Positions 27,917 to 46,057 are shown, counted from the first letter of the stretch. The stretch is 64,000 nt of DNA from an uncultured Candidatus Saccharibacteria bacterium (GCA_964414295.1 CAYPVU010000007.1:43492-107491); one strand, 5' to 3'. Notes: a model not told the origin generated them from the letters alone. Program-made: numbers and translations.

Positions 27917-27977
27917 GAAAATGGTATTCCGCCGGCTTCATAACCCGGAGTAGATAGTTCGAATCTATCCCCTGCAA
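27907..27977 (+). tRNA. tRNA-Met/Ile2-like (anticodon CAU), 71 nt, island-encoded
   Basis: Acceptor CGCAGGG/CCCTGCA with a C1xA72 mismatch, D-arm GGAA-AATGGTA-TTCC, anticodon arm CCGGC-TTCATAA-CCCGG (U33, CAU, A37; C31xC39 mismatch), 4-nt variable, T-arm GATAG-TTCGAAT-CTATC. Short D-loop and variable loop. Confidence 0.45.
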
Positions 27978-27998
27978 GATATTTTTTATTAAGAATAT

Positions 27999-29239: not shown

Positions 29240-29489
29240 AAATTGAAACGATTAAAGTAATTGAAAAAACAATAAGTGTACTATCTACAGTATGGTCAAG
29301 TGAAGATGTTTATAAACTACCACAGCAGCAGGAGACATCTTTAGAGCTATATTTGTTTCAGAATATTTGAAGAGTAAGAATACTGAATCATCACTAAAAG
29401 TAGCTTTGGAAACTGCGACCGAGTCAACAAGGTATAAAGGTGTTAACAATACAATTACTCAACTATTCCATCGAACTAAGAAATAACTT

Positions 29490-32400: not shown

Positions 32401-32573
32401 ATGAATCACTAATGAAAGAATTTCTAGAAAAGAAACCTGAATGGTTAAAGAAAGAAGCTGACCAAGAGAATTACTTGAAGCAAAAAGTCATTATCAAAAT
32501 ATTCGAAAAACTTGGTTACGAAGAATCTGGTGACGAAATAGTTTTTTTGATTGAACTTCCAAAGTTACAGTAG
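29490..32573 (+). CDS. Large (1027 aa) protein with N-terminal 4-TM membrane anchor and ~850-aa soluble domain, function unknown
   Basis: Hydrophobic helices within the first ~170 aa. The remainder is charged/helical with no recognised catalytic motifs. Confidence 0.45.
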   Translation: MGKLTEHTTSVWNESKIKESNAGLKAKFIAYLKPDKLGWNIWIVNALIFAVIFFLTHIFLFFPSLKPCSISPFEETNHLQNLFTLHAAVTALIFPMVFFIAEKLRSTDKDEGRVLIRESSFWHIIFFGTALFLNLVIAGDDIWRVAAYLVHFLYILLVLNSIRSIINILLNPLEMDKRTQQLYTQRMNRYNNELISLRIANNNFAGYLKQNPYTDFSFFNEDKEIVFKSEKFGTITDINIKALHKLINRVIKLSAQKEKLSDSSAESETPKPVEEKPAKPEIKVSRLIGHKVTQEHSNLLTIRGISNQDEKEVKQLVQQVFIINETKSFDEELEVELGAIRDDLIQSIRSNSQSKIKTKLDQIEKVTSSFLKALNAINSNYSAEDANQERGNLIERWNQIEFVTDILDDALQESLSTNNQKIVKEIIYFPFRLSRLAIKYNDHLIFQTFIGYIGRVYFLGNSRDIDKSVKEFIFDRSFRHLSEFANYVLVPDAEKQGGDADLSNYYSYFQSIAKVFVNLMKSAYDAKNEKHFARFATELSKIAKYFESRTYRNHYDDSDTDIDSKLKLKKHIEESKQDIFFGFASFILRDFMSSKDEKLKPYIQKLESLLPNDIKEFTEIFIRVHNFDMGEVWGWDWWHVREDEEHFSKIETLPNLEKFYAVRGLALVGHLDQNYLERIDMPTSRDLYYLTEGTRDLLNLLNHIKQNPTQYSYLIADITEEKVNKFISLLDKAKQKQIEIDKKTIVGSSLDEEKVAEFIKDFRDGYNRHTVLRSIFKAYSKIEDKTDTYIKQPEARGVNQVEDKEAFIRDWHVHYAELGEHFGSNMAYFQNQKLLSFAKEKSHALTIEELLQTEEDPTDLIAILAGSNLYELKEMYENNKSVRLFSSWEVASDTAESKLPVLGEHIDGFIEIKNVKVPIIIIDGERDKPELIVIKPSSLGKAIQYKPLESVDSDSLIEGIFSLEIIDIAKDESLMKEFLEKKPEWLKKEADQENYLKQKVIIKIFEKLGYEESGDEIVFLIELPKLQ

Positions 32574-32682
32574 CAATCTCATTTATAATTCTCATCAAAT
32601 TAAGTATAATTAACTCATAAGTTTTAGGAAGACCTAAACTCAGTGCTTGCATTGGGCATGGTTGAACTAAAATATACAAAAT

Positions 32683-32812
32683 CCACAACGACGATAATAG
32701 CGGCTTCCTAGCCAGCACTTCGTCGTTGTGGTCGAGAACTCCGAAAGGGTCTCGGGTACGTACGAAAGGAGGTATCGCTGGTGTGGGAAGCCACTTTTGC
32801 TTCCTGCTAACT
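32683..32812. other. GC-rich structured element (candidate ncRNA / structured leader)
   Basis: Perfect 11-bp inverted repeat ccacaacgacg(32683-32693)/cgtcgttgtgg(32721-32731), plus further hairpins (ccga-aagggtc-tcgg; ggaagc-cactttt-gcttcc). Local GC is far above the AT-rich background. Confidence 0.3.
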
Positions 32813-32853
32813 TTCCATATCAGCACTACATTATTTTAGTTATATTTACTGAT

Positions 32854-33810
32854 ATGAATGGTGACAACGACACTATTTCAAGGATTAAGCGTTTTCTAGG
32901 TGACAAAAGGAAATTAATGTTTACTTTGCCTCTAGGATGTTTAATATTACTTTGTTTCTGCTGTTTCTCAATCTTCTTACTAGGTTACTTCCTCCCGCCG
33001 ACACTTAAACTTGCTGCTGACGATAACGGTAAAGCTGTATTAGAGCCGAACTATACAATCTCACTTGAATGCTCTGGCATTACCCAACTCAAATTGAACG
33101 ACAAAGAACTATCTACGCAAGAACGAGATGCAATTTGTAGCAAGACTGGCTATAAAGCCGATTTAGTAAATGGTGATAATGCTTTTAACCTTGAAGGTAG
33201 TGATTTGAAAGGTCAGAAGGTAGAGTTAGCTTTTACAATCAAGTATGACGAAGCCGAACATGAAAGAATCCTTGCGCAGCAAGAACAAGATAGACTTGCT
33301 GAAGCTGAAAGACAAAAACAGCTCGAAGAGGAAAATAAGCGAAAGCAGGAAGAGGAAGCTAAACAAAAAGCTGAACAAGACGCAAAAGCTTTGAGTGAAT
33401 GGAAAAACAAATACTACCAATATAAATCCTCAAATATCGATGTTAACTTTGCCAAGTCCAGCGAAATGATTCAGGTATTAAGTAACGGCGTTGATTCTTA
33501 TCAGAGTAGAAATCAAGCAAAGAATTATAAGCAATACTTTGTAAGCCAATGTAAAGCTACCTTAGAAAATGACCTAAAACCGATACCATCTACAGTTAGT
33601 CAAGAAATCAAAGACCTAAACACATTCTACAGCGATTTTTGCCTGTACAACAACTCGTTAGCCAGCAAAGTTGTAAGCTACTTTGAGTCTACCTCAACAC
33701 AAGACCAGTACAACAATCTAGATATGATTACCTACTACATGGGCGAGGTTAACAATGCAAAACTCAATATGGAAGGCAAGATGTCAGCTATTGATTCTAA
33801 GTTAAAGTAA
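32854..33810 (+). CDS. Membrane-anchored coiled-coil protein
   Basis: The ORF track starts at 32728 but the first 42 codons cover the GC-rich structured element. The internal Met at 32854 precedes a TM helix (LGCLILLCFCCFSIFLLGYF) and a KQ/E-rich coiled coil. Confidence 0.4.
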   Translation: MNGDNDTISRIKRFLGDKRKLMFTLPLGCLILLCFCCFSIFLLGYFLPPTLKLAADDNGKAVLEPNYTISLECSGITQLKLNDKELSTQERDAICSKTGYKADLVNGDNAFNLEGSDLKGQKVELAFTIKYDEAEHERILAQQEQDRLAEAERQKQLEEENKRKQEEEAKQKAEQDAKALSEWKNKYYQYKSSNIDVNFAKSSEMIQVLSNGVDSYQSRNQAKNYKQYFVSQCKATLENDLKPIPSTVSQEIKDLNTFYSDFCLYNNSLASKVVSYFESTSTQDQYNNLDMITYYMGEVNNAKLNMEGKMSAIDSKLK

Positions 33811-33829
33811 GTTTTAATTAACAACAAAT

Positions 33830-34057
33830 ATGGATAAAAAATATGAAGTCAAAACAATAAAGTACAACAACGAGAGAGCAATGACGCAAGGCAAGAAGAA
33901 TATGATTAGCAAAGGTTGGGAGGTGGTAGAAACTGTAACAATAAATGGGAGATATGGCTGTTTCAATACAGCCTGTTTGGGTTGCTTATTCCTACCATTG
34001 GCACTGCTGGGTAAATCTAGTGATAGCTATCAGGTGACGTATAGAAAAGTGAAATAA
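33830..34057 (+). CDS. Small hypothetical protein
   Basis: 75 aa. Confidence 0.25.
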   Translation: MDKKYEVKTIKYNNERAMTQGKKNMISKGWEVVETVTINGRYGCFNTACLGCLFLPLALLGKSSDSYQVTYRKVK

Positions 34058-34119
34058 ACAAAGTACAAAATAGTTTACTTTGGAAGTATAATTGGTTAGA
34101 TATTTCTTACTTATTAAAT

Positions 34120-34596
34120 ATGAGTGCAGATAATCTGCTATCAGAAGGTTTGCAAAAAGGTTTTGGTGGTTCAACAAACATTGAAAAAACTTCCAGAGGT
34201 AGCTTTCAACTCACTTCAAGTCATTATGAAGGAGGTAGCGGAGTTTATCACGATGAATGGGTGACTGGCGGCGGACAAGAACTTGTAAGAACACAAGATG
34301 GTGAATCAATGACTAGAACTTATGTTGGTAATGTTATTGCGCCTGAAAAATTGGAAGAATTGGGTATAACAGAAAAAGATGTAATGACTGTACTTAAAAG
34401 AGTAATAACTGAACATGGTGACCAGATTAGATTAGGAGATGATTTCGAAATAACATTGGACGACTGGCTGTACACTTATAAAGTAACTTACAGGCGTGAA
34501 GACCCTTATATTATTAACGGAATTGAAGAAATCCTTTATAAAGACCAGTCAGTTTTTGTTCATACTTTTGGAATTAGCAAGGTAGTCGAAAGCTAA
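34120..34596 (+). CDS. Hypothetical protein
   Basis: 158 aa. Confidence 0.3.
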   Translation: MSADNLLSEGLQKGFGGSTNIEKTSRGSFQLTSSHYEGGSGVYHDEWVTGGGQELVRTQDGESMTRTYVGNVIAPEKLEELGITEKDVMTVLKRVITEHGDQIRLGDDFEITLDDWLYTYKVTYRREDPYIINGIEEILYKDQSVFVHTFGISKVVES

Positions 34597-34619
34597 TCTT
34601 ATTCATTATTAGTTAGCTC

Positions 34620-34988
34620 ATGTACCATGCAATCATAATTAACAAACAGTTTGTAGACAGCAATTATCCTAACACAAAAGATGTATTTGCGAAGAAAGTT
34701 GATGGAGATTGGGAGATTTTTGGAGTAAAAGTGGAAGATAGTGAACTGGATGACTTTATTGCAGAAGTCCAACAAAATATGAGGCCAAATCAAACTTGGT
34801 ATGCGCATGCCTACAACGATACTGAAATGCTTGTTATCTTCAAAGATAAAGTAATCAAAGTCACTCCTCACCAGTCAACTTGGACTCCAATCTTTGAGTA
34901 TGGGAAATCACTTGGTATTCCTGAAAAGCAATTAGATTTCTGGCCAAATAGATTTCAGGATGAGAAGCATTATTTTGAGGAGAAGTAG
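34620..34988 (+). CDS. Hypothetical protein
   Basis: 122 aa. Confidence 0.3.
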   Translation: MYHAIIINKQFVDSNYPNTKDVFAKKVDGDWEIFGVKVEDSELDDFIAEVQQNMRPNQTWYAHAYNDTEMLVIFKDKVIKVTPHQSTWTPIFEYGKSLGIPEKQLDFWPNRFQDEKHYFEEK

Positions 34989-35340
34989 TGAAGCGGGGTG
35001 GAGGGTAAATCTTAAATCTGAACATTCACTACAGAAAGTAGTTGAACTCCTTGCTGTATAAAAGATTCAGGGTATTTGATAATATTAACCCAGTTGGAAG
35101 TTCGAAAATCGTCCCAAGCTTCCCGCCATTTTGCTTCGGTTGCTACAAGACCCGTCTACCTCCCTCTATGTCCTTTAATGGTGTTGTAGATTGGTGATCC
35201 AGAATCGCTAGATTTGCAAAAAGCACTTTTTTACCTCAAAAGTCCTCTAAATCTAAATTTATGAAAGCCATTTGGTTCTAAGGTTTTTTGTTGTGTGTGT
35301 TGAGTTTATACAGTTGATATTTTCGGTTCGAATCTTGTCC

Positions 35341-36174
35341 TTATGATTGAATATTTGGAAATAATTTCTCATATTCATCTGTTGTCATAATATCGTTTAA
35401 AAACTGTTCGAGTTTGATCGTTCTCTTAACCTCTACTAGTCCTTCAGATAAACTTTTGTCTATATCTATACTTTGAAGATCATGATTCAATGTAGTCATA
35501 AAGATAGATACTAGGGCTACATCTTCCTTACTTGATATGTCCTTTAGATTTGAACTAGAAGAAAAAATGAAAAAAGTATCAAACTGCCTAATTCTTAATT
35601 GTGAGATTACTAGATCATGCTCATTAACTACTCCCACTTGAGCATTCAAGCTAGATACATATTGCCAAACATCACCAGGTACATCAATAGCCTGGCAAAC
35701 AAAAATATAACTATTATTTACCACAGGATCCCCATCTTTAATCGACTGTAAAATATCTTTGTCTATTTCAATATGTTTAGGTAAACTTGGGATCGCATCT
35801 CTTACAAGATTTAAGTGTGTCTTTAACAACCACCCAAGTGTTTTATTATTGAATGTTAATTTTAATGCCTGACCATCTTCACTATTCAATATTTCGTTGG
35901 CTAGTGTGCAACCTGCATCATCGAAACCATTAATACTTAATTTTGTATTGCAATCTTGGCAAACATCCTTAATAACACCCTCAAAGTTTTTTAACATCTT
36001 CCACTCACCACCCTTTTTGCCATGATGCATATTTTCGATTTTAGGTCCATATAAAACTTTTAGAACAGATGCTGAAACTAAATGTTCGGATGATAAATTT
36101 GAAGTCTTACCACAATAAATACATTTTTTAGCCATTTTTATAAAATTAGTGGGTAAATTAGTGTGAGAATACAC
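35341..36174 (-). CDS. HNH-endonuclease-like protein (N-terminal CxxC...EHLV motif) with unknown C-terminal domain
   Basis: CIYCGKTSNLSSEHLVSASVL resembles the HNH core (CxxC .. EH(I/V)xP). Last gene of the six-gene minus-strand operon. Confidence 0.4.
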   Translation of the reverse strand: MYSHTNLPTNFIKMAKKCIYCGKTSNLSSEHLVSASVLKVLYGPKIENMHHGKKGGEWKMLKNFEGVIKDVCQDCNTKLSINGFDDAGCTLANEILNSEDGQALKLTFNNKTLGWLLKTHLNLVRDAIPSLPKHIEIDKDILQSIKDGDPVVNNSYIFVCQAIDVPGDVWQYVSSLNAQVGVVNEHDLVISQLRIRQFDTFFIFSSSSNLKDISSKEDVALVSIFMTTLNHDLQSIDIDKSLSEGLVEVKRTIKLEQFLNDIMTTDEYEKLFPNIQS

Positions 36175-36206
36175 CTAGTTAACTAATTTTAGCAATATTA
36201 ATTCTG

Positions 36207-37550
36207 TCAGATAAAACTTAAACTTCTATTTATTAACTTAAATTTGGAATTAACACCCCCCAGTATTTTCAATCTTTCTTCTGGAGTACCGAATTGAAGT
36301 ATATGAAGTAAATATGATTGGAGCATCTGAGACTCAGATTCAGATAGATCTGACTGGTTTACATTACCATTTCTATGAGGAGTTAAGTTAATTGTCTCTT
36401 CACCTTGTTTATATATAATCCCTTTCAAATGATTTAGTCTTTTGACCTCTTCTTCAAACTCTTGCCATAAATATTTAATATTTAGCTTTAATTCAGGAAG
36501 CAGAACTATTAATTGTTTGATCAATTCTTCTTCAGTAATATATGGTTCCTTACAATCATAATCTTTAATTCTATTGCAGTGGTAATAGATGTGAGTATTA
36601 ATAACTCCTTTTTTTGTTCTTCTGTATTTAACTTCTGCTGTAACACTTCCACCACATCTCCCACATTTGCATATCTTTTTAAACGGGAATACTTGTTTAT
36701 TCCATTGTCTGGGAACAACTTCAAGTTGAATCTGAACCTTATCAAAAATATATTTGGAGATCAAGGGTTCATGAATTCCTTTATACCATTTCTTACCGTA
36801 TTGAAATTCTCCATAATAAAAAGGATTACTGAGAGCAACATAAATTCTACCTAAGCTTAATTTGTAACCTTTTTTTGTTTGAAAGTTTTGTTTGTCTAGC
36901 CACTTTTTAACCATTCTTCCTGAATATCCTTGGTTGGCAACTTTATAAAACATTTCTTTAATTACATGAGCTCGTTCTGGATCTAAATCAACTGAAGCTA
37001 TCCTATTTCCTTTCATTGTATTTAAGTAGCCAATTGGAGCCATTCCAGGCCGAATTCCGATACCACATTTATTCCTCAAGCCTCGCTTAACATTGATTCC
37101 TCTATTATCATTTTCAAGTTTTGCCTGAGAACACAGAATCATCAATAAGAACTTTTCATTTGGATTATTGCTGAAAGTTTGAGAATGAGTTTTAATAAAA
37201 AGTAACTTTCCTTGATCCATTAGATCTACAACTCGACCTAAATCTCCTGCATTTCTAGAAATTCTGTCTGGAGCCCAGGTGACTATAGCGTTATATTTCC
37301 CTTTAGAAATATTCTCAAGCATGTAATTGAATTGAGGTCTTTGACCAGTTTCTTTTGCAGAATGGCTTTCTGTAATTACTTCATGAATTTCAATCTTTTC
37401 TCTCTTTGCCAATTCCTTCATTTCCATTAATTGGCCATCAATACTCATTGCTTGTTTTTCATCTGATTCTGAGGATTTTCTGGCATAAAGGCAGTATTGT
37501 ATTTCTTGGTCTGTAGTTTTCATTACCAAGGACAGTACCGCCAACCTCAT
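36207..37550 (-). CDS. Large serine recombinase (second copy, different sequence from 21566..23296)
   Basis: YCLYARKSSESDEKQAMSIDGQ catalytic serine motif, recombinase domain, and a CxxC..C..C zinc ribbon (CKCGRCGGS). Confidence 0.85.
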   Translation of the reverse strand: MRLAVLSLVMKTTDQEIQYCLYARKSSESDEKQAMSIDGQLMEMKELAKREKIEIHEVITESHSAKETGQRPQFNYMLENISKGKYNAIVTWAPDRISRNAGDLGRVVDLMDQGKLLFIKTHSQTFSNNPNEKFLLMILCSQAKLENDNRGINVKRGLRNKCGIGIRPGMAPIGYLNTMKGNRIASVDLDPERAHVIKEMFYKVANQGYSGRMVKKWLDKQNFQTKKGYKLSLGRIYVALSNPFYYGEFQYGKKWYKGIHEPLISKYIFDKVQIQLEVVPRQWNKQVFPFKKICKCGRCGGSVTAEVKYRRTKKGVINTHIYYHCNRIKDYDCKEPYITEEELIKQLIVLLPELKLNIKYLWQEFEEEVKRLNHLKGIIYKQGEETINLTPHRNGNVNQSDLSESESQMLQSYLLHILQFGTPEERLKILGGVNSKFKLINRSLSFI

Positions 37551-37565
37551 TCAAAGTCCAGCAGA

Positions 37566-39110
37566 TTACCACCACCTTGGATCATCTCCATCCCAATAAG
37601 AAGGCCTGCTTCCATACCAACTTTGTCCCCCACCTCTGAGTAAAGCTGCTGCTTCTCCAGTAATGACTTGAACTCCAGGTCTGTCTTTTTCTGCAACTTT
37701 TAGTAATACCATAGTAAATGCATCGACCAAATCATCATGTTTTTCTACACCAAAATATATAAGTTGCTGTATTAAATCTTCAGCTCCATTTCTCGGAAAT
37801 AGAACTTGACCTAATCGAATAAATGGAGTGACAGAATTTAATCTTGATCTTTTATCTTGTCCATGAACTTTAAACCCTTTTGCATTCAGTCCTTTATTTT
37901 TTAATTGCTGAATTACCGATGCTTGATATCCTACCTCTTCAATATATACTTCAGGTCTTCTGCCATAATGTTGCTCACGGCCTTTTTCTTTCAATACCTC
38001 AATTGTTGTTGGAAACTCAACTCTTTTATTAAATGGATGCGGTAAAATGTAAACCTTCAATTTTTCAAGGTTCCCAAATACATGTGCCGTTACCATAGCA
38101 CTGTAGTCTGCAGAATCATTCATAGAAATAGCTAGATCAACTCCGATAATTGTATACTCGTAATCTTTAGTATTTTCAGGCAAGGTGTCATAATATTGTA
38201 TCCATTCTCGATAAACTAGCTGATCATCTTCAGGAATAATTTTAAGCATGTATTCTCTTTGCCATGCTTTATCATCTCCTATGATGTTTTTAAAATCATT
38301 AATGGCATCCATATCCTTAAATTTACTTAGCCAAAGTATGTTATTGTTGCTATCTACAATTGGATATTCTCGAAATATTGCATTCATATTTTCTTCAGTA
38401 ATTTTCTTCTTTAATCTCATAAGAAGAGAATCTTCGTGCAAAAGATTTCCAATCATTATTATTTTTGTAGTTTGATCACCAAGAGGAATAACTTCACCAG
38501 TTAACCATGAATATGTTTTATCTCTGCTTTCTTTTGTTTTAATAGTAGCTAGATCTTCAACATCATCACAGATTATTAAATCAGGTCTATGAGCTCCATG
38601 TCTAATACCTCGAATACTTTGCTCACTAGAAGCTGCAATAATTCTTGCATTAAATTTTGGAAGAACCAATGAGTATGAACCCCATTCATCAGATTCTTCT
38701 TCTAAAGCTCCTAAATCATTTCTTAAAACTTCATTACTTTCTAGCTCACGTTTTAAATTGGCAAAGTGAGTTCTAACTTGTTGTTGAGTTTGAGAAATTA
38801 TTACAACACATTTCTTTTGTTGCTTACCTAAAATTGCCCATAGAGGGTATGACATTGTCATGATTGTTGATTTAGCAGATCCTCTAAATGCAATGATTAC
38901 TGCCATCTTTATTTCATCATCTTCAGTTATTTTGAACATTTCTCTTTGAAAATCAGCTGTAGGGTAAGCAACATACTCACTAAAATATAGATGAAAAAAC
39001 CAATAATGACTTTCTCTTGTCAATTCTTTTCTAGCTCTTTTATCAACTAGAATCTTTTCAATTATTTCCATAGGCATCTCGAAATCTTTATTAATTTGTT
39101 TCTTGTTCAT
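37566..39110 (-). CDS. terL: Phage-type terminase large subunit (ATPase + RNaseH-like nuclease)
   Basis: Walker A AFRGSAKST, Walker B LIICDDVED, and C-terminal nuclease acidic residues (GVDLAISMNDSADYSAMV, KHDDLVDAFTM). Confidence 0.8.
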   Translation of the reverse strand: MNKKQINKDFEMPMEIIEKILVDKRARKELTRESHYWFFHLYFSEYVAYPTADFQREMFKITEDDEIKMAVIIAFRGSAKSTIMTMSYPLWAILGKQQKKCVVIISQTQQQVRTHFANLKRELESNEVLRNDLGALEEESDEWGSYSLVLPKFNARIIAASSEQSIRGIRHGAHRPDLIICDDVEDLATIKTKESRDKTYSWLTGEVIPLGDQTTKIIMIGNLLHEDSLLMRLKKKITEENMNAIFREYPIVDSNNNILWLSKFKDMDAINDFKNIIGDDKAWQREYMLKIIPEDDQLVYREWIQYYDTLPENTKDYEYTIIGVDLAISMNDSADYSAMVTAHVFGNLEKLKVYILPHPFNKRVEFPTTIEVLKEKGREQHYGRRPEVYIEEVGYQASVIQQLKNKGLNAKGFKVHGQDKRSRLNSVTPFIRLGQVLFPRNGAEDLIQQLIYFGVEKHDDLVDAFTMVLLKVAEKDRPGVQVITGEAAALLRGGGQSWYGSRPSYWDGDDPRWW

Positions 39111-39492
39111 CTTCTGAATTATTAACAGATAAATTAAACGCCATGCTCAACGATTTTCTAATCGTTTCTTTTTGTTCTTCAGTTAGCGGAAGATCAGCAC
39201 TTTTAGTAGTAACTTCTAACTTTGGAGAGTATTGCTTATGGTGATTTTTAAGCCAGAATATGATCCCTGTCATATTTCCATTTTTAATTGATGTTATTAA
39301 TTGGCTCTCAGCCATATCATTAACCAACTGAGAGCCCTCATTTAAAGCAAATTCCGCTTCTTCAGCAAATTTCTGATCTCTTTTCTTCCATCTATAGAAT
39401 GTCGCTCTGCCGATTCCAATCTTTTTACAAGCAACTTCAATGACTGGAGTTTTTCTTAGTTGTTCAACTAATTCTTTCTTTTTATTTTTCAT
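39091..39492 (-). CDS. Terminase small subunit-like HTH protein
   Basis: ACKKIGIGRATFYRWKK HTH. Size 133 aa. Immediately upstream of terL and overlapping it. Confidence 0.5.
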   Translation of the reverse strand: MKNKKKELVEQLRKTPVIEVACKKIGIGRATFYRWKKRDQKFAEEAEFALNEGSQLVNDMAESQLITSIKNGNMTGIIFWLKNHHKQYSPKLEVTTKSADLPLTEEQKETIRKSLSMAFNLSVNNSEDEQETN

Positions 39493-42287
39493 GATATTTT
39501 TACTCCTTTCTTACCAGTTAATTTTTCCCAACGATTCTTAATTACTTCTGCATAAACTGGTGATTTTTCCATTAAGTAACATCTTCTTTTCATTTTTGTT
39601 GATGCGATTAGTGTTGAACCGCTTCCTCCAAATGGTTCAATTATCAAATCATCCCTTTGGGTCAGAACTTTAATGTATGGAATTAGAATTTCGAGTGGCT
39701 TAGTTCCAAAAATAATTCCTTGACCAGAACTTTTTTCATCTGAAGCTTTATATTCAATAAAGTCAGTTGGCTGAATCTTTTTTCCTTTTTCATATCCTTC
39801 CCAGTGTGGTTTACCAGCAGTTGCATAGAGAGCAGATTCGTATTCATTTTGTAGAAGCTCATCTTCTGGTTCTAAGTTCAAAGTTTCTTTATTTTCAGTT
39901 GACCCAACCATAGCAATATCATGCTTCGAAAAGAATTTATATTTAGCTGCAAATCCTTGATTCCTATTTGGGAGATGCCAAACTAACATATTCTTAACTT
40001 TCCAGTATTTTTCCATTTCATTCCAAATTGTTCTAATGTTTTTCCAATTTTCATAAACGATAATATGAAAGTTGTCCTTCGAAATTTTAGATACATTCCC
40101 CATCCATAGCTCTGTAAAGTTATCCGGGAGCTCATCTAACTGATTCTCGTGTTGATAATTAATTGACCTAGAAATTAAATATTTTAAAGGCTTAGAATTA
40201 ATCCAATCAAAAATTAATATGGAATAAAATTTCAAGAGATTAATTTGCTTTTCATTTTTTGCAAGTTTAAGTATCTGATCTCTGCCTACCTCTTCTTCTT
40301 GCCAGTTATAGTATTTGTGCATAAATTTTAGCACTTCAAGAATTTCATTTGTTGTTGGGTTACTAGTGAGCTTAATAAGAGAGTTACTATCTAGTTTCAA
40401 GATTTGATTCTGATACTCTAGACTAATTGATGATGAAACCTTAAGTATATCCATTGGAACTTTATTTGAATTAGTTTCATTTTCAAGAACCTTAGCCGAG
40501 TCAGGGATTTCTGTTAGGAGTGTGTTTAAAAATACTGATCCGGTTCTTTCGATTGAGTGCAGAAGTGCGATATTTGAATAGTGATTTAAGATTTCTACTT
40601 CGTAATTGGTGTTACTTTTTCTAGTTAACTCATGGTCTCCTAGAGTTAAAAATATATTCTCATAAAACTTTTTCTGTCCATCTATAACTTGCGATTTTAC
40701 TTTCGGCGGTTTTTCTTTTGAGAAAAGATCTTCAAGTACACTTTTCTTATTCCAGTCTTTAGCATTCTTTTCTTTAACGACAAAGATGTTGCCTGAGAAT
40801 TCCTTACTAAGCCTACCAGCTCTACCAATAAGATTCAGGAAATCTACCTTTCTAAAGTTTGACATACCGATTTTCTCACTAAGTATGAATATATTTTTTG
40901 CTGGAAGATTCACTCCTTCTAATAATGTTGAAGTACAAAAAAGATAATCCAGATGACCGTTCCTAAATAAATTCTCTAGTTGGACTCTAATTCTCTGAGG
41001 TAGATCACCAAAATGAAATCCTATTCCTTTTTTAAGGCAATTTATTAAATAATATTCTTCATGAATAGTTTCTTTTATTAGCTTTATAAGTTGATTAACC
41101 TTTTCGTCATTCTTATCCAATAGTTGCTCCGAAAATTGAATAGCATAATCTCTTGTTTTATTTTTAGAATTACAATAAATTATACTTTTCCCAGTTCCAG
41201 AAATTGAAGTTATCCATTCAAATAAGCCTTTATCGTTATTCAAATGCATAGAACTTGTTTCAAATTCTCCAATAATTTTTAATTCTTGATCCTGGAGATC
41301 AAGGAAATATTTATTTTGTGATACTGGACTTTCAATAGTATAAAAAGATTCATCAGTGCTCTTATCAAAAAGTTTCAGGTAAATCTCAGGATTAGATATG
41401 TTTGGTGATGCAAAGTATAGTTTCATAGATTTCTTTTGCGCCTGCAAAATCGCATGATAATACAAAGGACTTCTTGTATCTTTTTCTGATATGACTTTAT
41501 GTGCTTCGTCAATAAACAAATATTCAATTGAAGGATTATTTTTGTCAGATATGTATGATATTAACCTCTCAGGAGTGAAAATAAATATGTAATTATTACC
41601 CTTATTTTTTATGTATTGTGGAATTTTCGGATGAACTAGTATTTCGAAATTATTAATCTCTTTAAAATTCTCCTTAAGCTTTAAAAGATTTTGATTGATT
41701 AGTGCACGTGTTGGCACTAGAATTGCAATATTATCCTTAATTTTTTCTTCAATAATTAAATATTTTATAAATGATTCAATAATAAATGACTTTCCTAATG
41801 ATGTTGGACCAGAGAAGCTAAAATGTTGATTTTTCTTTAGTAGTTCAAATATATTGTACTGGCTATCCGTAAATACAAGTTCTGAATTAGGAACAGCTTG
41901 AATTGAGCGTTTTATAGTTTCTTCATATTGATTTTCAGTAGGAATTTGAAATTCAGCATTACTTCTTGTCTTTTCAAAAAATTTAATAGCAGGGAAATTC
42001 CCAAGTTTAACTAATATTACTTTTAAGATGTTTTCTATAATTTGAGGAGATTTATGATACTCAAAAATAAGACTAACTATTTTATATGCTAAATTTCTTG
42101 CCATTTCATTTTGTGACGAAGATAATATGTCTGCAAACCTCAATAAGTGATAGAATTCTTTTTCAGATAGACCTTCATCAATTTCAGTACTCAGTATATT
42201 CTCATAGGATATATTCACCTCAAGTTTAGTTATAATTTTCGCAAGGTAGTTATCATTAAGTGCTTTTTTTGCTAACTGTTCTATCAT
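39489..42287 (-). CDS. SF2 DExH helicase fused to a C-terminal beta-class N4/N6 DNA-methyltransferase-like domain (catalytic DPPY motif not found)
   Basis: Helicase motifs: SGPTSLGKSF (I), ILVPTRAL (Ia), FIDEAHKV (II), TSTLLEGVNLPA (V), LIGRAGRL (VI). C-terminus: LVWHLPNRNQGFAAKYKFFSKHDIAMV and GTKPLEILIPYIKVLTQRDDLIIEPFGGSGSTLIAS match the PF01555-type segment ..TQKP..DPFxGSGTT. No D/N/SPPY motif upstream (VYENW occupies that position). Confidence 0.7.
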   Translation of the reverse strand: MIEQLAKKALNDNYLAKIITKLEVNISYENILSTEIDEGLSEKEFYHLLRFADILSSSQNEMARNLAYKIVSLIFEYHKSPQIIENILKVILVKLGNFPAIKFFEKTRSNAEFQIPTENQYEETIKRSIQAVPNSELVFTDSQYNIFELLKKNQHFSFSGPTSLGKSFIIESFIKYLIIEEKIKDNIAILVPTRALINQNLLKLKENFKEINNFEILVHPKIPQYIKNKGNNYIFIFTPERLISYISDKNNPSIEYLFIDEAHKVISEKDTRSPLYYHAILQAQKKSMKLYFASPNISNPEIYLKLFDKSTDESFYTIESPVSQNKYFLDLQDQELKIIGEFETSSMHLNNDKGLFEWITSISGTGKSIIYCNSKNKTRDYAIQFSEQLLDKNDEKVNQLIKLIKETIHEEYYLINCLKKGIGFHFGDLPQRIRVQLENLFRNGHLDYLFCTSTLLEGVNLPAKNIFILSEKIGMSNFRKVDFLNLIGRAGRLSKEFSGNIFVVKEKNAKDWNKKSVLEDLFSKEKPPKVKSQVIDGQKKFYENIFLTLGDHELTRKSNTNYEVEILNHYSNIALLHSIERTGSVFLNTLLTEIPDSAKVLENETNSNKVPMDILKVSSSISLEYQNQILKLDSNSLIKLTSNPTTNEILEVLKFMHKYYNWQEEEVGRDQILKLAKNEKQINLLKFYSILIFDWINSKPLKYLISRSINYQHENQLDELPDNFTELWMGNVSKISKDNFHIIVYENWKNIRTIWNEMEKYWKVKNMLVWHLPNRNQGFAAKYKFFSKHDIAMVGSTENKETLNLEPEDELLQNEYESALYATAGKPHWEGYEKGKKIQPTDFIEYKASDEKSSGQGIIFGTKPLEILIPYIKVLTQRDDLIIEPFGGSGSTLIASTKMKRRCYLMEKSPVYAEVIKNRWEKLTGKKGVKIS

Positions 42288-42288
42288 A

Positions 42289-43200
42289 TTAGGATGTTAT
42301 AGATTGAGTTATATCAGTTCTAGCTTTATCTAGTTCTGTAAAAGGTAAAATGTATAGATAAAAGCAATGGCCAGCTAAATCATGTTCACTAATCTTATTT
42401 GAAATATTTTTGAACTGACCTTCCACTTCTTTTCTTATTTTATTATTTATAGAATTTCTAAAATCATTATTTGACAATCTCTTTTCTTCGGGAGATAGCT
42501 CTATCTCATAACCTATAAATATCCCAAAAGCATCATCTACCTGGAAACTATTACTTTCTTTTGGATAAATCAAATCTTGAATGATTGAAATTTCCTCAGC
42601 TGTGAAAGATTCATTCTCTAGGTGGCTACTAATAAGGGCCTTCTCAAAATTAATCCCACTTTTTTCATCCCCTTTATTATTTACCTCATTTTTGAAATCT
42701 GATATAGATTTTAAGGCTTCACTTATGGCATTCGTAAGATCCTTTATTGTTTTGGACTCTCCAAATATGATTTGATAGTTACCATTTTCTAGTCTAAGAA
42801 AATGGATACCGTCTGAGCCATTTACATAAAATTTATTAGATGTCTTTAATTCTAGTTTAGATAATATTTTGGGAGCTTTAAGATGATTTTTTAAAAAACA
42901 ATAAAGCAAAAGCTCACCAAGTTCTCCTGTATTCATTTCCTTTATGAATCTTTCTCTAGCTCGCTTAGATAGAGTGGCCGGTTTCCCTTGTAGTTTTTCT
43001 CTTGTTTTTCCGGATAATGAAAAGTCTATTAAAGGTTCCAATAATCTTTCTTTAATAAGATCATAGTTAAATGAGTTGGCATTAATATTATGGACAAATA
43101 GACTTAGTTTAGTTTTAGGGTTTAGTGGATCTATTTCCCTACTATCTATTAAATTTACAAATGATTCTAAAAAATCATCATTCATATCTATATTTTTCAC
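42289..43200 (-). CDS. PD-(D/E)xK-like nuclease candidate (Hachiman HamA-like position)
   Basis: VNGSDGIHFLRLENGNYQIIFGESKT gives D-x18-ESK, compatible with the PD-(D/E)xK core. 303 aa. Abuts the helicase gene with a 1-nt spacer. Confidence 0.35.
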   Translation of the reverse strand: MKNIDMNDDFLESFVNLIDSREIDPLNPKTKLSLFVHNINANSFNYDLIKERLLEPLIDFSLSGKTREKLQGKPATLSKRARERFIKEMNTGELGELLLYCFLKNHLKAPKILSKLELKTSNKFYVNGSDGIHFLRLENGNYQIIFGESKTIKDLTNAISEALKSISDFKNEVNNKGDEKSGINFEKALISSHLENESFTAEEISIIQDLIYPKESNSFQVDDAFGIFIGYEIELSPEEKRLSNNDFRNSINNKIRKEVEGQFKNISNKISEHDLAGHCFYLYILPFTELDKARTDITQSITS

Positions 43201-43288
43201 TTATACCAAATAAAATTAGTTGAAATATTTTCATAATGAAATCTCATTCTGATTTTTGGTAGAATTATATCAAAATTATATATAAATT

Positions 43289-44914
43289 ATGCAATATCTT
43301 CAGAATCAACAATATTATGAAGATCGTTATGACTTATTAACTATCGAGCTTTGCCTAGATAAGATTGATTTCGTAAATAAGGTTGCAAAAGATTCTCTTG
43401 ATTCTCCTGATTTCAAAAATACTCCAATCGAAGAGGTTGATAAAGGATGGCGATATGTTCTGCATGAACAGCTTTTAAATACCGAATTACACAGATATAA
43501 GAATCGAGAAACTGAAATAAACAAATCAATAGAAGAAGCCAGACTCAGACAAGATAAGTATGATAATACTCCAGCTCCATCAGTTAAATGCACTACTTGC
43601 AGAAAATTAATGGATGTAACAATGAAGTCACTTGATTGGCATGATACGGATCCAAAGAAAATGCTATTTTTCTTTGAATGCCCTTCATGTAAGAAGCGTA
43701 AACATGTTTGGGAAGATGGAAAGGAATGGATCTATGAACCCGATCTTTGTCCAAAATGTAAGTCAGAAGTTAAGCAAAGTTATAAACGAAAAGGCGATAT
43801 AGTTACTACTATAATAAAATGTACTTCATGTAGTTATAAGAATGTAGAAGTTGATGACTATAAAAAAGATGAGGAAGAAAGATTGCTGAAAAAACAAAAA
43901 GAGAAAGATTTATTAGAAAAATATAGACCAGAGTTTTGTTTATCAAAAGAGAAAGGTGATGAGTTACTGGATGGATTTGAACAGCTCAAGTTTATGAATG
44001 AAGTATATGAATATGAACTTCAAAAATACCAAGATCCAGCTTTTGAAAAAACCTTTAATGTAAAAAAGCTAACCATTATTGAACTTGAAAAGCTACTTAA
44101 TAAAAAGTTAGTTAAATATAAGTTTAAAAAATTAATTTTAGATAAACCCGAAATTACTCGATTTGTCATAGTCCCATTCTCAGTTCAAGATAATGATACA
44201 AATAGAAACAACAAAGATAGTACTAAAGAATTAGAGAAAATAATTAAAGAAACTTTAGAGATAACAAACTGGAGACTTACACCAGATGGTACTTCGTATA
44301 GATTAGGATATATATCAGGAAGGTTAAAAGGCTATGAACGAGATGAAGACCTACATGAATTATTTGGTAAAAAGAATGAAGAACCTAAAACAGAATTAGA
44401 TCCTGAGAAACTTTCAAAGTATTCAAATACTGCTGAAATAGCAAGATTATTTGCTAAGGTAGAAATAACAGATAGGTTAAGAAAGAAGAGATTAGTAAAA
44501 GAACCTGAGGGTTTCTTTTTAGAAGATCGAGAATCTGGTTATTCATGTAATCTTTGCTCTAGAGGTCTTAAAGGCAGTGAATCATGGTGGAACTTAGACG
44601 GTATTCAATGCATAGACTGCAGAAGAAATGTAAAGGAAGGAATAATTCCTGCTGAAATTATTAAGAATCATGATCTTTGGATTGCAAATTGGCAATTTAA
44701 AAGTGAATTTCGATTACATTCTGCTACAGTTAGCAAAATGAAACGAAATGGTGAACTCGTCGGTCGAGAATTAAAAGATTTAGAAGGTAAGACTTACTTT
44801 ACTGTTTACATGGTTGAAGATAATAAAAAGTTCTTTAAGAAGCATAGAAAGACTTCAAGCAATAATAGAAAATGGGAGTTTGTTGATAAGGATGGAATTG
44901 AGATATTACTTTGA
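43289..44914 (+). CDS. Zinc-ribbon-rich hypothetical protein
   Basis: At least five CxxC pairs (CTTCRK, CPSCKK, CPKCKS, CTSCSYK, CNLCSR...CIDCRR). 541 aa. Divergent from the nuclease/helicase operon. Confidence 0.4.
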   Translation: MQYLQNQQYYEDRYDLLTIELCLDKIDFVNKVAKDSLDSPDFKNTPIEEVDKGWRYVLHEQLLNTELHRYKNRETEINKSIEEARLRQDKYDNTPAPSVKCTTCRKLMDVTMKSLDWHDTDPKKMLFFFECPSCKKRKHVWEDGKEWIYEPDLCPKCKSEVKQSYKRKGDIVTTIIKCTSCSYKNVEVDDYKKDEEERLLKKQKEKDLLEKYRPEFCLSKEKGDELLDGFEQLKFMNEVYEYELQKYQDPAFEKTFNVKKLTIIELEKLLNKKLVKYKFKKLILDKPEITRFVIVPFSVQDNDTNRNNKDSTKELEKIIKETLEITNWRLTPDGTSYRLGYISGRLKGYERDEDLHELFGKKNEEPKTELDPEKLSKYSNTAEIARLFAKVEITDRLRKKRLVKEPEGFFLEDRESGYSCNLCSRGLKGSESWWNLDGIQCIDCRRNVKEGIIPAEIIKNHDLWIANWQFKSEFRLHSATVSKMKRNGELVGRELKDLEGKTYFTVYMVEDNKKFFKKHRKTSSNNRKWEFVDKDGIEILL

Positions 44915-45007
44915 TTGATTCAAAATTTGTAATGTAATACAAAGCTACTGAATATCTATAGGTGATATAATCTTAAACATCTATTTCAGAACGAGCTTAA
45001 TTCTACT

Positions 45008-46057
45008 ATGGTGAATGTAAATTTTGATAGGGAGTACTATAAAAATTTAATAGCGAAACATGGGTATCAAGAGCTAAATATTTCTGCAATTGACTTCAAT
45101 CTTGGCAATATTAACAAAGATATACTTCAGAGAAAATGGTTATGCCATAGTAAAGGAAACATATTTGCTAAAGAACTTCTAAACACAAAATCAATTGTAA
45201 CAACTGGTATAGGAATAAGTGGTGCTCCACATATGGGCACTTTAGGACAAATTTTTAATTCTATATTCCTTCAAAATCACGGTATCAATACGCAATTTGT
45301 ATTGGGAGATTTAGATGCTTATAACGGTAAAAAGCTTTCATTATCTTACGTAAGAGAACTTTCAGAGCAGTATAAATCATTTATTACTAACTTAGGCTAC
45401 TCTACAACGAATGGAAATATATTAAGGAATCAGTTTGATGCAAATGAAGTTACTAGGACCATGTACCTAATTGCAAAGTTTATAGAAGATAAAGATTTTG
45501 ATAATGTAGAAGAAGATCTTCACAACTTTTATTCTGATAAAGGAAAAGTAGATAAGGATATGTCCTTTAGACGTAAGACTTCTCTTACTCTTATGACTGC
45601 AGATTTTATAGATCTTGTTATCAATCACAGTTTTACTAACGTGTTAGTTACATTAGGAGTAGATGAACATAGGTATGTTTTGTTTTCAGAAAAGATTCTC
45701 GAAAGAGTTATAGAATCCGGTGAAATATTACCGAGCGACAGTAATATAAATTTTGGAGCAATGTACACTCACATAATCAGAGGTTTTAATAACTATCCTA
45801 AAATGTCGAAATCATTCCCTGATTCTTCCATAAATATTGAAATGAATTCAGATGACATAAGAAATAGAATCTTGAATGAAAAAACAAACAAAATTCCAGA
45901 AGAAGACACTGTATATCAAATGATGTGTCTAGTAAGTAAATTTAATAGTGAGGACCTGTCTGAAAGATATATTGCATGCAAAGAAGATAAAGCATTATGG
46001 AAGAAATATAAAAGCGACTATTTAGAATACTTGATAGATATTTTTAAACTGTGGTGA
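45008..46057 (+). CDS. Class I aminoacyl-tRNA synthetase paralogue of archaeal-type TyrRS/TrpRS family
   Basis: Exact KMSKS motif (YPKMSKSFPDSS). GISGAPHMGTLG occupies the HIGH position. LQNHGINTQFVLGDLDAYNGKK parallels the M. jannaschii TyrRS segment [24 protein letters not shown]. Confidence 0.6.
   Translation: MVNVNFDREYYKNLIAKHGYQELNISAIDFNLGNINKDILQRKWLCHSKGNIFAKELLNTKSIVTTGIGISGAPHMGTLGQIFNSIFLQNHGINTQFVLGDLDAYNGKKLSLSYVRELSEQYKSFITNLGYSTTNGNILRNQFDANEVTRTMYLIAKFIEDKDFDNVEEDLHNFYSDKGKVDKDMSFRRKTSLTLMTADFIDLVINHSFTNVLVTLGVDEHRYVLFSEKILERVIESGEILPSDSNINFGAMYTHIIRGFNNYPKMSKSFPDSSINIEMNSDDIRNRILNEKTNKIPEEDTVYQMMCLVSKFNSEDLSERYIACKEDKALWKKYKSDYLEYLIDIFKLW

What the first reader, a model, noticed from the sequence alone, without database searches (positions are those of the whole stretch)
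39489..43200. Hachiman-like gene pair whose helicase carries a degenerate beta-class DNA methyltransferase domain
Upstream gene: D-x18-ESK, compatible with PD-(D/E)xK. Downstream gene: full SF2 helicase motif set (GKS, PTRAL, DEAH, GRAGR). The order small nuclease then DExH helicase matches Hachiman (HamA/HamB), as far as I recall that architecture.

Unusually, the C-terminal ~250 aa reproduce the PF01555-type MTase segments (..LVWHLPN..G..KY.FFSKHD.. and ..TKPLEIL......DDLIIEPFGGSGST..). The SAM-binding motif I is intact, but there is no D/N/SPPY catalytic motif; VYENW sits in its place.

This could be a SAM- or DNA-binding pseudo-methylase used as a sensor/regulator module on a defence helicase. 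Alternatively it is a split type ISP-like RM derivative that has lost methylation.
Basis: partly seen in the sequence, partly recalled or inferred. Interest (0 to 1): 0.75.

Follow-up and report, generated by a model that had tools for sequence, protein, structure and literature searches.

The report
Hachiman helicase fused to methylase remnant
A known two-gene anti-phage system (Hachiman) sits in a small mobile island of an uncultured Patescibacteria genome. A one-off DNA rearrangement there welded the front 84% of its helicase gene, in frame, onto the back half of the neighbouring phage-type DNA methylase gene, so this is a genomic accident rather than a new kind of defence protein.

Summary
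The gene pair is real. hamA (42289-43200, -) is an intact DUF1837/HamA nuclease gene. The 932-aa ORF (39489-42287, -) begins as a clear HamB helicase.

The "methylase domain" is truncated, not degenerate. HamB homology stops at residue 718, so a conserved C-terminal module of about 137 aa is missing. From residue 719 the ORF is the last 214 aa of a ParB_N-PF01555 methyltransferase, a gene that normally heads a methylase/TerS/TerL/serine-recombinase module common in Patescibacteria.

So VYENW is not a decayed motif IV. Motif IV and the ParB domain, 225 aa in all, were simply deleted.

The two parents meet at one shared GAT codon (40136-40134). The closest intact element (BroJett037) aligns without gaps from 40137 onward.

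No other protein combines both parts in 5.8 billion proteins, 1.84 billion cluster representatives or 185,579 species genomes. The only copies are near-identical ones from two sequencing runs and one NCBI contig, so this is not an assembly artefact.

Best reading: a recent microhomology-mediated in-frame chimera, with a dead methylase and a probably impaired Hachiman. A functional sensor fusion is not excluded but has no support. Interest is low.

The parts
42289..43200 (-). hamA: intact DUF1837/HamA PD-(D/E)xK effector nuclease gene, 303 aa from a GTG start (298 aa from the ATG used in the Logan gene calls)
   Evidence: PF08878 E=3e-56 over the full profile, and PADLOC HamA1 E=1e-107. D130...E148-S-K150 is present. 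It is 71-75% identical to the HamA of the closest full-length systems.
40134..42287 (-). hamB-derived 5' part of the chimeric ORF (codons 1-718). It holds the N-terminal HamA-binding helical domain, the RecA1/RecA2 helicase core and most of the C-terminal helical region. The last ~137 aa of HamB are missing.
   Evidence: PADLOC HamB1 E=6e-246, covering profile positions 3-754 of 845. It is up to 69% identical to 845-860 aa HamBs, and those alignments end near residue 718. Motifs I, Ia, II and VI are present. AF2 pLDDT is mostly 80-95 up to about residue 660 and 57-83 from there to 712.
40128..40139 (-). Recombination junction, reading TTA GAT | GAG CTC (L717 D718 | E719 L720). The GAT codon (40136-40134) is shared by both parents.
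   Evidence: Three-way DNA comparison with the closest hamB (L012) and the closest intact methylase (L014). Ungapped DNA homology to L014 starts at window 40137. AF2 pLDDT is below 50 at residues 713-720.
39489..40133 (-). Methylase-derived 3' part of the chimeric ORF (codons 719-932 plus stop). It is the C-terminal 214 aa of a ParB_N-PF01555 DNA methyltransferase, with the FGGSGST AdoMet motif. It lacks the ParB_N domain, the strand predicted at DMCFTD (motif IV region) and DPPY.
   Evidence: PF01555 profile positions 20-220 of 221, against 2-220 in the intact L014 protein. It is 95% aa identical to L014 and 73-87% to many Patescibacteria methylases. It aligns to residues 226-442 of a 444-aa intact protein. 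AF2 pLDDT is 26-75.
39091..39492 (-). Terminase small subunit-like gene (133 aa). Its start overlaps the chimeric ORF's stop (ATGA), as in intact elements.
   Evidence: PHROG 309/4102 terminase small subunit, E=7e-10. It is 94% identical to L014 TerS. The same 4-nt overlap occurs in L014, at 8702-8705.
37566..39110 (-). Terminase large subunit gene (514 aa)
   Evidence: PHROG 38, E=1e-80. Terminase_6C. It is 80% identical to L014 TerL and has distant matches to phage TerL proteins.
36207..37550 (-). Large serine recombinase (447 aa) of the island
   Evidence: PHROG 95 integrase, E=2e-57. Resolvase/Recombinase/Zn_ribbon_recom annotations appear in the Logan gene calls. It is 84% identical to the L014 homologue.
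43289..44914 (+). 541-aa zinc-ribbon-rich protein of unknown function, transcribed divergently from hamA. It probably belongs to the same island.
   Evidence: It has no Pfam or PHROG family. Homologues lie directly downstream of hamB in L003-L005, and homologues occur in 15 of 80 genome loci, in several cases divergently just upstream of the ParB-methylase gene.
35341..36174 (-). 277-aa Cys-rich protein of unknown function at the tRNA-Ser-proximal end of the island
   Evidence: It is present in all three assemblies. It has no family match. It is not homologous to the 277-aa gene of L003.

Best explanation
The 932-aa ORF is an accidental, evolutionarily recent in-frame chimera.

Setting. In an ~9.8 kb integrative island next to tRNA-Ser, a type I Hachiman cassette (hamA-hamB) lay upstream of, and co-oriented with, the island's ParB_N-PF01555 methylase / TerS / TerL / serine-recombinase operon.

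Event. An illegitimate recombination at a shared GAT codon (3-4 nt of microhomology) removed three things: the last ~137 codons of hamB, whatever lay between the genes, and the first 225 codons of the methylase gene. That joined HamB residues 1-718 to methylase residues 226-end.

Shown. Both parents are truncated at the junction. The methylase half lacks the ParB domain, the strand predicted at DMCFTD and DPPY, so it cannot methylate DNA. HamB lacks a C-terminal module that is strongly conserved in the family. The architecture exists only in this one lineage.

Inferred.
- HamA, and the HamB N-terminal domain that binds HamA in solved complexes, are intact. The nuclease is therefore probably still sequestered, which makes the fusion tolerable.
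- DNA sensing and ratcheting by the truncated helicase, and hence Hachiman defence, are probably impaired.
- The methylase tail is a passenger. Keeping the frame preserves the native ATGA coupling to TerS, which could explain why an in-frame deletion survived.
For: 1. Hachiman identity. HamA PF08878 E=3e-56, and PADLOC HamB1 E=6e-246 covering only profile positions 3-754 of 845.
2. Extent of HamB homology. The top 119 other HamB homologues (44-69% identical) are nearly all 845-868 aa, carry no PF01555, and cover only ~77% of the query. Their alignments end at query residue ~712-720.
3. The lost segment is conserved. In 118 homologues the block at P0002 residues 751-810 has mean column identity 0.72-0.79, and 30 columns are >=90% conserved. 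It matches residues 722-850 of the solved 853-aa HamB-class chain 9wh1_B at E=7e-32.
4. Methylase half. The 11 intact relatives aligned have DMCFTDPPY about 45 aa upstream of LPDNFTELW, and also IIVYENWKN. The remnant aligns to residues 226-442 of 444. Pfam coverage is 20-220 here against 2-220 in the intact L014 protein.
5. Junction. The window reads AATCAGTTA-GAT-GAGCTCCCGGATAAC. The closest hamB (L012) matches up to GAT, and L014's methylase matches from (A)GAT onward. L014 then aligns without gaps for 2470 nt at 82% through TerS and TerL, and on into the recombinase.
6. Singleton. Only self-copies combine both parts in 5.8e9 proteins. None of the best 150 among 1.84e9 representatives does. 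None of the 80 best loci from 185,579 species genomes does.
7. Real sequence. The identical junction occurs in two Logan assemblies from different runs (SRR12997672, SRR8581213) and in an NCBI contig.
8. The missing halves are not elsewhere in the 64 kb window.
9. Related element L003 carries full-length hamAB beside an intact ParB-methylase-TerS-TerL. So these modules do neighbour each other as separate genes.
10. AF2 gives the HamB part high confidence, the junction below 50 and the methylase tail 26-75. The same region of an intact relative, modelled with the same methylase alignment, reaches 70-87 in its AdoMet lobe. This is weak evidence.
Against: - The remnant shows no decay. It is 95% aa identical to L014 although synonymous sites are near saturation (dN 0.026, dS 1.16, dN/dS 0.02). 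Only 4 window-branch against 2 L014-branch amino-acid changes can be assigned. That fits a very recent event, but it fits continued purifying selection on the tail equally well.
- The fusion is in frame, the ORF is open for 2.8 kb, and the FGGSGST AdoMet motif is intact.
- The break falls at the end of a loop predicted with low confidence in the intact methylase, where a split could be structurally tolerated.
- The exact ancestor (hamAB co-oriented with an intact methylase) was not found. In L003 and L013 the cassette is divergent from the methylase.
- No experiment bears on whether the truncated HamB still works.
Confidence: 0.74

Rival explanations
1. Functional neo-fusion. The methylase C-terminal half (target-recognition region plus AdoMet-binding lobe) has been co-opted as a new C-terminal sensor or regulatory domain of HamB. 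It replaces the ancestral C-terminal module and couples Hachiman activation to AdoMet level, DNA modification state or the terminase machinery.
For: - The ORF is in frame and intact, and the FGGSGST motif is retained.
- The remnant is 95% identical in amino acids to a presumably functional orthologue, with dN/dS of 0.02.
- The breakpoint lies at the end of a low-confidence loop of the methylase. Other lineages also split the gene there.
- The fusion is present in two sequencing runs.
Against: - It is confined to one near-clonal lineage (>=99.96% nt identity). Nothing else in 5.8e9 proteins, 1.84e9 representatives or 185,579 genomes has it.
- It removes a conserved HamB module.
- It removes the methylase's DMCFTD strand with DPPY. 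AF2 confidence for the tail is low.
- The low dN/dS is what a recent event would also give.
- The microhomology junction and the perfect collinearity with the neighbouring operon look like a deletion, not a domain acquisition.
Confidence: 0.08
2. Hachiman is still a working defence system and the methylase remnant is an inert C-terminal tail. On this view the lost HamB C-terminal module is dispensable, or its role is fortuitously covered.
For: - HamA is intact, and so are the HamB N-terminal domain and all helicase motifs.
- In solved HamAB complexes, HamA binds the N-terminal helical domain of HamB, not the C-terminus (PMC12278908 and PMC11914072).
- The HamB part folds confidently in AF2.
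Against: - The deleted block is among the better conserved parts of the family (30 columns >=90% conserved in 118 homologues).
- It is present in the top 119 other HamB hits (nearly all 845-868 aa) and in the solved 853-aa structure.
- The C-terminal helical region is described as part of the nucleic-acid-binding cleft that moves during ratcheting (PMC12278908).
Confidence: 0.15
3. Assembly chimera. The junction is an artefact of metagenome assembly joining two unrelated contigs.
For: The source is a metagenome-derived genome, and the junction has short microhomology, which assemblers can mis-join.
Against: - The same junction occurs in three assemblies from at least two runs made with different assemblers. 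L002 differs from the window by 1 nt in 15.8 kb, and L001 by a few homopolymer indels.
- 3-4 nt of microhomology is far below any assembler k-mer.
- Flanking synteny is continuous on both sides.
Confidence: 0.02
4. A type ISP-like or type IIG-like single-chain restriction-modification enzyme that has lost methylation.
For: It combines an SF2 helicase and a methylase-like region in one polypeptide, next to a PD-(D/E)xK nuclease gene.
Against: - The helicase scores 817 bits against HamB1, with 20 further HamB models matching before the only RM-type model listed (MTase_II, 75 bits, for the tail).
- The nuclease is a separate HamA.
- The methylase half is beta-class PF01555. It is orthologous (95% aa) and syntenic with the ParB-methylase of the terminase module, not a gamma-class RM methylase.
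Confidence: 0.01

Closest known systems
Type I Hachiman (HamA DUF1837 nuclease + HamB Ski2-like helicase), for example E. coli ECOR31 HamAB (PDB 8VX9; PMC12278908) and the 853-aa HamB-class chain 9wh1_B
   Same: - Same gene order, with hamA directly followed by hamB.
- HamA matches its full-length profile and carries D...ExK.
- HamB has the N-terminal helical domain and the complete SF2 motif set.
- It is up to 69% identical to full-length HamBs from metagenomes.
   Different: - HamB ends at the equivalent of residue ~718 of ~855. It lacks the conserved C-terminal module (NW..FLEYG...ELQN.G..RH) and carries 214 foreign residues instead.
- It is transcriptionally and translationally joined to a terminase operon.
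ParB_N-PF01555 (beta-class N4/N6) DNA methyltransferases encoded just upstream of terminase small-subunit genes (PHROG 498/67). The closest is the 442-aa protein of Patescibacteria bacterium BroJett037 (BOLA01000001.1, locus L014).
   Same: - The C-terminal 214 aa are 95% identical to L014.
- Same downstream genes: TerS 94%, TerL 80%, recombinase 84%.
- Same ATGA overlap with TerS.
   Different: It lacks the first 225 aa, that is ParB_N, the linker, the strand predicted at DMCFTD and motif IV DPPY. It cannot be an active methylase on its own.
Type ISP restriction-modification enzymes (LlaGI/LlaBIII: Mrr nuclease, SF2 helicase-like motor, gamma-class methylase and TRD in one chain). Their properties are stated from general knowledge.
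   Same: A superficial resemblance only: a helicase followed by methylase-like sequence in one polypeptide, associated with a PD-(D/E)xK nuclease.
   Different: - The motor family is different (HamB/Ski2-like).
- The nuclease is a separate protein.
- The methylase class is different (beta) and the domain is truncated.
- There is no evidence of common descent.
Gene fusions and pseudogene remnants created by microhomology-mediated deletion between neighbouring genes in mobile elements (a general phenomenon)
   Same: - Both parents are truncated exactly at the junction.
- There are 3-4 nt of shared sequence.
- Collinearity with the intact neighbour operon is retained.
- The arrangement occurs in a single lineage.
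   Different: This one happens to be in frame and joins a defence helicase to a methylase half, which gives a misleadingly 'designed' look.

Membership tests
Hachiman (HamAB) defence system | HamA with a DUF1837 domain and a D...E-x-K nuclease motif | tested here: met
   PF08878 E=3e-56 over profile positions 3-230 of 230, and PADLOC HamA1 E=1e-107. D130, E148 and K150 are present.
Hachiman (HamAB) defence system | HamB is an SF2/Ski2-like helicase with intact ATPase motifs and the family-specific N-terminal helical (HamA-binding) domain | tested here: met
   PADLOC HamB1 E=6e-246, with the match starting at residue 1. GPTSLGKS, PTRAL, DEAH and GRAGR are present. AF2 pLDDT is 80-95 for this part.
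Hachiman (HamAB) defence system | Full-length HamB, including the conserved C-terminal helical module | tested here: not met
   The profile is covered only to position 754 of 845. Alignments to 845-860 aa homologues stop near residue 718. The missing block has 30 columns >=90% conserved and is present in 9wh1_B.
Hachiman (HamAB) defence system | hamA and hamB are adjacent and co-oriented in one operon | tested here: met
   The hamA stop codon ends at 42289 and the hamB ATG is at 42287, on the same strand.
Hachiman (HamAB) defence system | Protects against phage through DNA-damage-triggered release of the HamA nuclease | not testable with these tools
   This needs plaque and nuclease assays. 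The mechanism is known only from E. coli systems (PMC12278908, PMC11914072).
Beta-class N4/N6 DNA methyltransferase (PF01555) | AdoMet-binding motif I (FxGxG) | tested here: met
   EPFGGSGST at residue 884, conserved in all relatives.
Beta-class N4/N6 DNA methyltransferase (PF01555) | Catalytic motif IV, (D/N/S)PP(Y/F) | tested here: not met
   No such motif occurs in the ORF. Of 87 related loci where the aligned position could be read, 82 read TDPPY. That position lies in the deleted 225 aa.
Beta-class N4/N6 DNA methyltransferase (PF01555) | Complete catalytic domain, from motif IV through motif III | tested here: not met
   Pfam profile positions 20-220 only, against 2-220 in the intact orthologue. 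The strand predicted at DMCFTD in the intact model is absent.
Type ISP / single-chain helicase-methylase RM enzymes | Nuclease, motor, gamma-class methylase and TRD all in one polypeptide, with an active methylase | tested here: not met
   The nuclease is a separate HamA. The motor is HamB. The methylase part is a beta-class fragment orthologous to the terminase-linked ParB-methylase.

The most novel reading that the evidence does not exclude
The chimera is a functional new Hachiman variant. The AdoMet-binding and target-recognition half of a phage-type methylase has replaced HamB's ancestral C-terminal module. It would act as a sensor of AdoMet depletion or DNA modification state, or as a tether to the island's packaging machinery, and so gate release of the HamA nuclease.
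Probability: 0.07. Interest if true: 0.6.

Novelty: new member of a known kind. Interest (0 to 1): 0.2.

Why it matters
As a defence protein it matters little. It is a Hachiman system damaged by a rearrangement, not a new architecture.

It is useful as a caution. An in-frame fusion with an 'inactivated' catalytic motif can look like a designed pseudo-enzyme sensor. Three checks separate the two readings:
- whether both parents are truncated at the junction;
- whether the fusion recurs in diverged lineages;
- whether the 'domain' is collinear with the neighbouring operon.

Two side observations may deserve more attention than the finding itself:
- A small capsid-less methylase/TerS/TerL/serine-recombinase module is very widespread in Patescibacteria and has defence cargo next to it.
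- Its methylase gene is repeatedly split in the same loop.

Tried and rejected
- Motif IV degenerated in place (VYENW = ex-DPPY). Rejected, because intact relatives have both motifs.
- Missing halves relocated nearby. tblastn with full ParB-methylases and with HamB C-termini found nothing else in the window.
- The ~205-aa methylase 'proteins' in other genomes (P0144, P0179, P0221) as naturally short, DPPY-less paralogues that might show a stand-alone function for this half. They turned out to be gene calls downstream of a frameshift (L007), a TAA (L008) or a TGA (L011) inside otherwise full-length ParB-methylase genes.
- The direct ancestor (hamAB co-oriented with an intact methylase) among the closest HamB contigs. 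In L003 and L013 the cassette is next to PF01555 methylases but divergent. L005 and L012 are uninformative.
- The 277-aa genes of the window and of L003 as homologues, which would have suggested circular permutation of the element. They are not homologous.
- att repeats of the tRNA-Ser 3' end at the island borders. Only a weak 17-nt similarity at 35325-35341 was seen, and no match within 3 mismatches.
- Promoter and terminator scan of 35000-45100. Nothing above the shuffled expectation.
- Literature. No paper in the held library describes a HamB-methylase fusion or this Patescibacteria module.
- AF2 of the chimera against an intact methylase. It gives only weak evidence, because the alignments are shallow and the intact control also scored a modest mean pLDDT of 64.

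Full report
**What is there**

Two abutting minus-strand genes occupy window 39489-43200.

The upstream 303-aa protein is a complete HamA:
- PF08878 at E=3e-56 over the whole profile, and PADLOC HamA1 at E=1e-107.
- It carries D130-x17-E148-S-K150.

It scores 817 bits (E=6e-246) against PADLOC HamB1.

Its C-terminus matches PF01555 (E=8e-16, residues 713-917). It contains LVWHLPN, FFSKHD, TKPLEIL and EPFGGSGST. No D/N/SPPY occurs anywhere in the ORF. So the raw observation holds, and it rests on HMM scores far beyond chance.

**Both halves are cut**

The two profile matches are incomplete in complementary ways:
- HamB covers profile positions 3-754 of 845.
- PF01555 covers positions 20-220 of 221.

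Among 5.8 billion proteins, the top 119 other HamB homologues (44-69% identical) are nearly all 845-868 aa long. They have no PF01555 and cover only about 77% of the query. In the alignment with the seven closest, similarity stops abruptly after ...SRSINYQHENQLD. The exhaustive HMMER search shows the same end point, at query residue 712-720, for most of the full-length HamB representatives.

The lost stretch corresponds to P0002 residues 719-855, and it is not a dispensable tail:
- In 118 homologues, the block at 751-810 has mean column identity 0.72-0.79. That is comparable to the helicase-motif regions. Thirty columns are at least 90% conserved.
- A profile of this stretch matches residues 722-850 of the solved 853-aa HamB-class chain 9wh1_B at E=7e-32.

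**Where the methylase half comes from**

The last ~218 aa are 73-87% identical to hundreds of PF01555 methylases from Patescibacteria (CPR) metagenomes. Many of these carry an N-terminal ParB_N domain and are ~375-445 aa long.

In the alignment, every intact relative reads ...EKADMCFTDPPYILDYL...GFGAKRNRRYLETDVLPDNFTELWM...HIIVYENWKN.... Two conclusions follow:
- 'VYENW' is a normal conserved segment about 55 residues downstream of motif IV. It is not a decayed DPPY.
- The window protein picks up the methylase sequence only at LPDNFTELWM.

Against a 444-aa intact protein (L003), the remnant aligns to residues 226-442. The ParB_N domain, the linker, the strand predicted at DMCFTD and DPPY are therefore simply absent. 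Across the related loci the aligned motif reads TDPPY in 82 cases, TDEPY in 3, and TDSPY and CDPPY in one each.

**The junction**

A scan of 185,579 species-representative genomes returned 80 loci. All of them match only residues ~716-932.

The best is L014, from Patescibacteria bacterium BroJett037 (BOLA01000001.1). It has:
- an intact 442-aa ParB_N-PF01555 gene, with Pfam profile coverage 2-220;
- then TerS (94% aa identity to the window), TerL (80%) and a large serine recombinase (84%).

At the DNA level, L014 aligns without a single gap from window 40137 through 2470 nt at 82% identity, and then on into the recombinase.

The three-way comparison reads:
- Window: AAT CAG TTA GAT GAG CTC CCG GAT AAC.
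- Closest hamB (L012): AAT CAA GTG GAT CTT TAT.
- L014 methylase: GAA ACA GAT GAA CTT CCT GAT AAC.

The parents therefore cross over at one shared GAT codon (D718, window 40136-40134). That is 3-4 nt of microhomology, the signature of illegitimate recombination. The chimera keeps the methylase gene's native 4-nt ATGA overlap with TerS.

**Real sequence, but a singleton**

The identical junction is present in three assemblies:
- L001 (Logan assembly of SRR12997672), 99.96% identical to the window. Its only differences in this stretch are two substitutions and three 1-nt indels in homopolymer runs.
- L002 (Logan assembly of SRR8581213), with 1 mismatch in 15.8 kb.
- An NCBI 114-kb contig.

It is therefore not an assembly artefact.

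No other protein combines the two parts. This holds for the 5.8e9-protein collection, for the best 150 of 1.84e9 representatives, where every hit covers either residues 1-~720 or ~716-931, and for the genome scan. The missing halves are not elsewhere in the window.

**Genomic setting**

The genes lie in an ~9.8 kb island between tRNA-Ser and a trpS-like host gene. Read along the minus strand, the order is:
1. p541, divergent from the rest
2. hamA
3. hamB'::'methylase
4. TerS
5. TerL
6. serine recombinase
7. p277

The methylase/TerS/TerL/recombinase module is common in Patescibacteria:
- TerS lies adjacent in 74 of 80 loci.
- TerL lies adjacent in 36 of the 64 loci with enough flanking sequence.
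- The recombinase lies within 8 kb in 35 of 50.

The module has no capsid genes in L014 or in the window.

Defence genes often sit beside it. In L003, full-length hamAB plus a Shedu-like gene lie next to an intact ParB-methylase-TerS-TerL, but in divergent orientation. So Hachiman and this methylase are neighbours as separate genes in a relative. The exact co-oriented ancestor was not found.

**How it most likely works**

Shown: the tail cannot methylate DNA, because it has no motif IV, no ParB domain and an incomplete Rossmann-type domain. HamB lacks a conserved module.

From the literature on solved HamAB complexes:
- HamA binds the N-terminal helical domain of HamB.
- The C-terminal helical region contributes to the nucleic-acid cleft and moves during ratcheting (PMC12278908; PMC11914072).

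Inferred:
- HamA is probably still held by the intact N-terminal domain, so the fusion is not toxic.
- DNA sensing and release are probably impaired.
- An in-frame deletion may have been the survivable kind, because it preserves translational coupling into TerS and TerL.

AF2 gives pLDDT of mostly 80-95 for the HamB part up to about residue 660 and 57-83 from there to 712. It gives below 50 at residues 713-720 and 26-75 for the tail. An intact relative, modelled with the same methylase alignment, reaches 70-87 in the AdoMet lobe. In that model the DPPY-to-LPDNF loop has pLDDT below 50. This is only weak support, because both alignments are shallow.

**What keeps the rival alive**

Against L014, the tail has dN=0.026, dS=1.16 and dN/dS=0.02. 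Only 4 amino-acid changes can be assigned to the window branch, against 2 to the L014 branch.

There is therefore no sign of decay. A very recent event would give that result, and so would continued constraint. With only near-clonal copies available, the two cannot be separated. I put the functional neo-fusion at under 10%.

**Comparison and novelty**

This is a member of type I Hachiman that fails one family feature, the complete HamB C-terminus. It is joined to a fragment of a terminase-linked ParB-PF01555 methylase.

It is not related to type ISP RM enzymes. No paper in the held library describes such a fusion.

It is a new member of a known kind that carries a rearrangement scar. Interest is low, about 0.2.

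Noticed in passing
window 21698-35122: A 13.4-kb segment is present in the window but absent from the otherwise 99.96%-identical Logan contig L001. The L001 junction is 21697|35123, with a 3-nt overlap, and contig L002 ends exactly at 35123. The segment starts with its own 576-aa large serine recombinase (21566-23296, -) right beside tRNA-Ser (21607-21698), and it carries tRNA-Met (27906-27978). It looks like a second, polymorphic integrative element inserted in tandem with the Hachiman/terminase island.
   Followed up: partly
L014-L093 (80 Patescibacteria genome loci), L003, L006, L007; window 36207-40133: A compact module (ParB_N-PF01555 methylase, TerS, TerL, large serine recombinase) is found across many Patescibacteria classes. 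No capsid or portal genes were seen where the neighbours were checked (L014 and the window). The methylase C-half is 72-96% aa identical across loci. TerS is adjacent in 74/80, TerL in 36/64 and the recombinase in 35/50. Defence-type cargo sits beside it: Hachiman plus Shedu in L003, AbiEii in L008, SIR2 plus DUF87 in L007, and SNF2 plus TerB_N in L014. It may be a satellite-like or domesticated packaging element. I found no description of it in the held literature.
   Followed up: partly
L008/L009/L010/L048 (TAA at codon 229), L011 and L085 (TGA at W238), L007 (frameshift in an A-run at 7896-7915): In several independent lineages the ParB-methylase gene is interrupted in the ~45-residue loop between DPPY and the conserved Met239. 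This leaves a ParB+DPPY ORF followed by a ~205-aa ORF. The TAA codon is the very codon after the fusion junction in the window. The pattern could be simple pseudogenisation, or a tolerated two-chain (split) methylase.
   Followed up: partly
window 43289-44914 (+): A 541-aa protein with several CxxC zinc-ribbon-like pairs has no Pfam or PHROG family. Homologues lie directly downstream of hamB in L003-L005. Homologues also occur in 15 of 80 loci, in several cases divergently just upstream of the ParB-methylase. It may be a regular island component or a Hachiman-associated gene.
   Followed up: partly
window 58312-58396 (+): ARAGORN reports an 85-nt tRNA-Asp with anticodon ATC. That is an unusual anticodon and length, so it may be a miscall or an atypical tRNA.
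   Followed up: no
L093 (CAZBLW010000002.1) 4715-6028 and 10419-11744: Two full-length copies of the ParB-methylase, each followed by a TerS-like gene, lie within 6 kb of each other in one contig, with a serine recombinase between them. These are tandem elements.
   Followed up: no
window 40131-40136: The junction codons GAG CTC form a SacI site (GAGCTC). L014 reads GAACTT at the same place, so this is most likely coincidence. It is noted only because it sits exactly at the fusion point.
   Followed up: no
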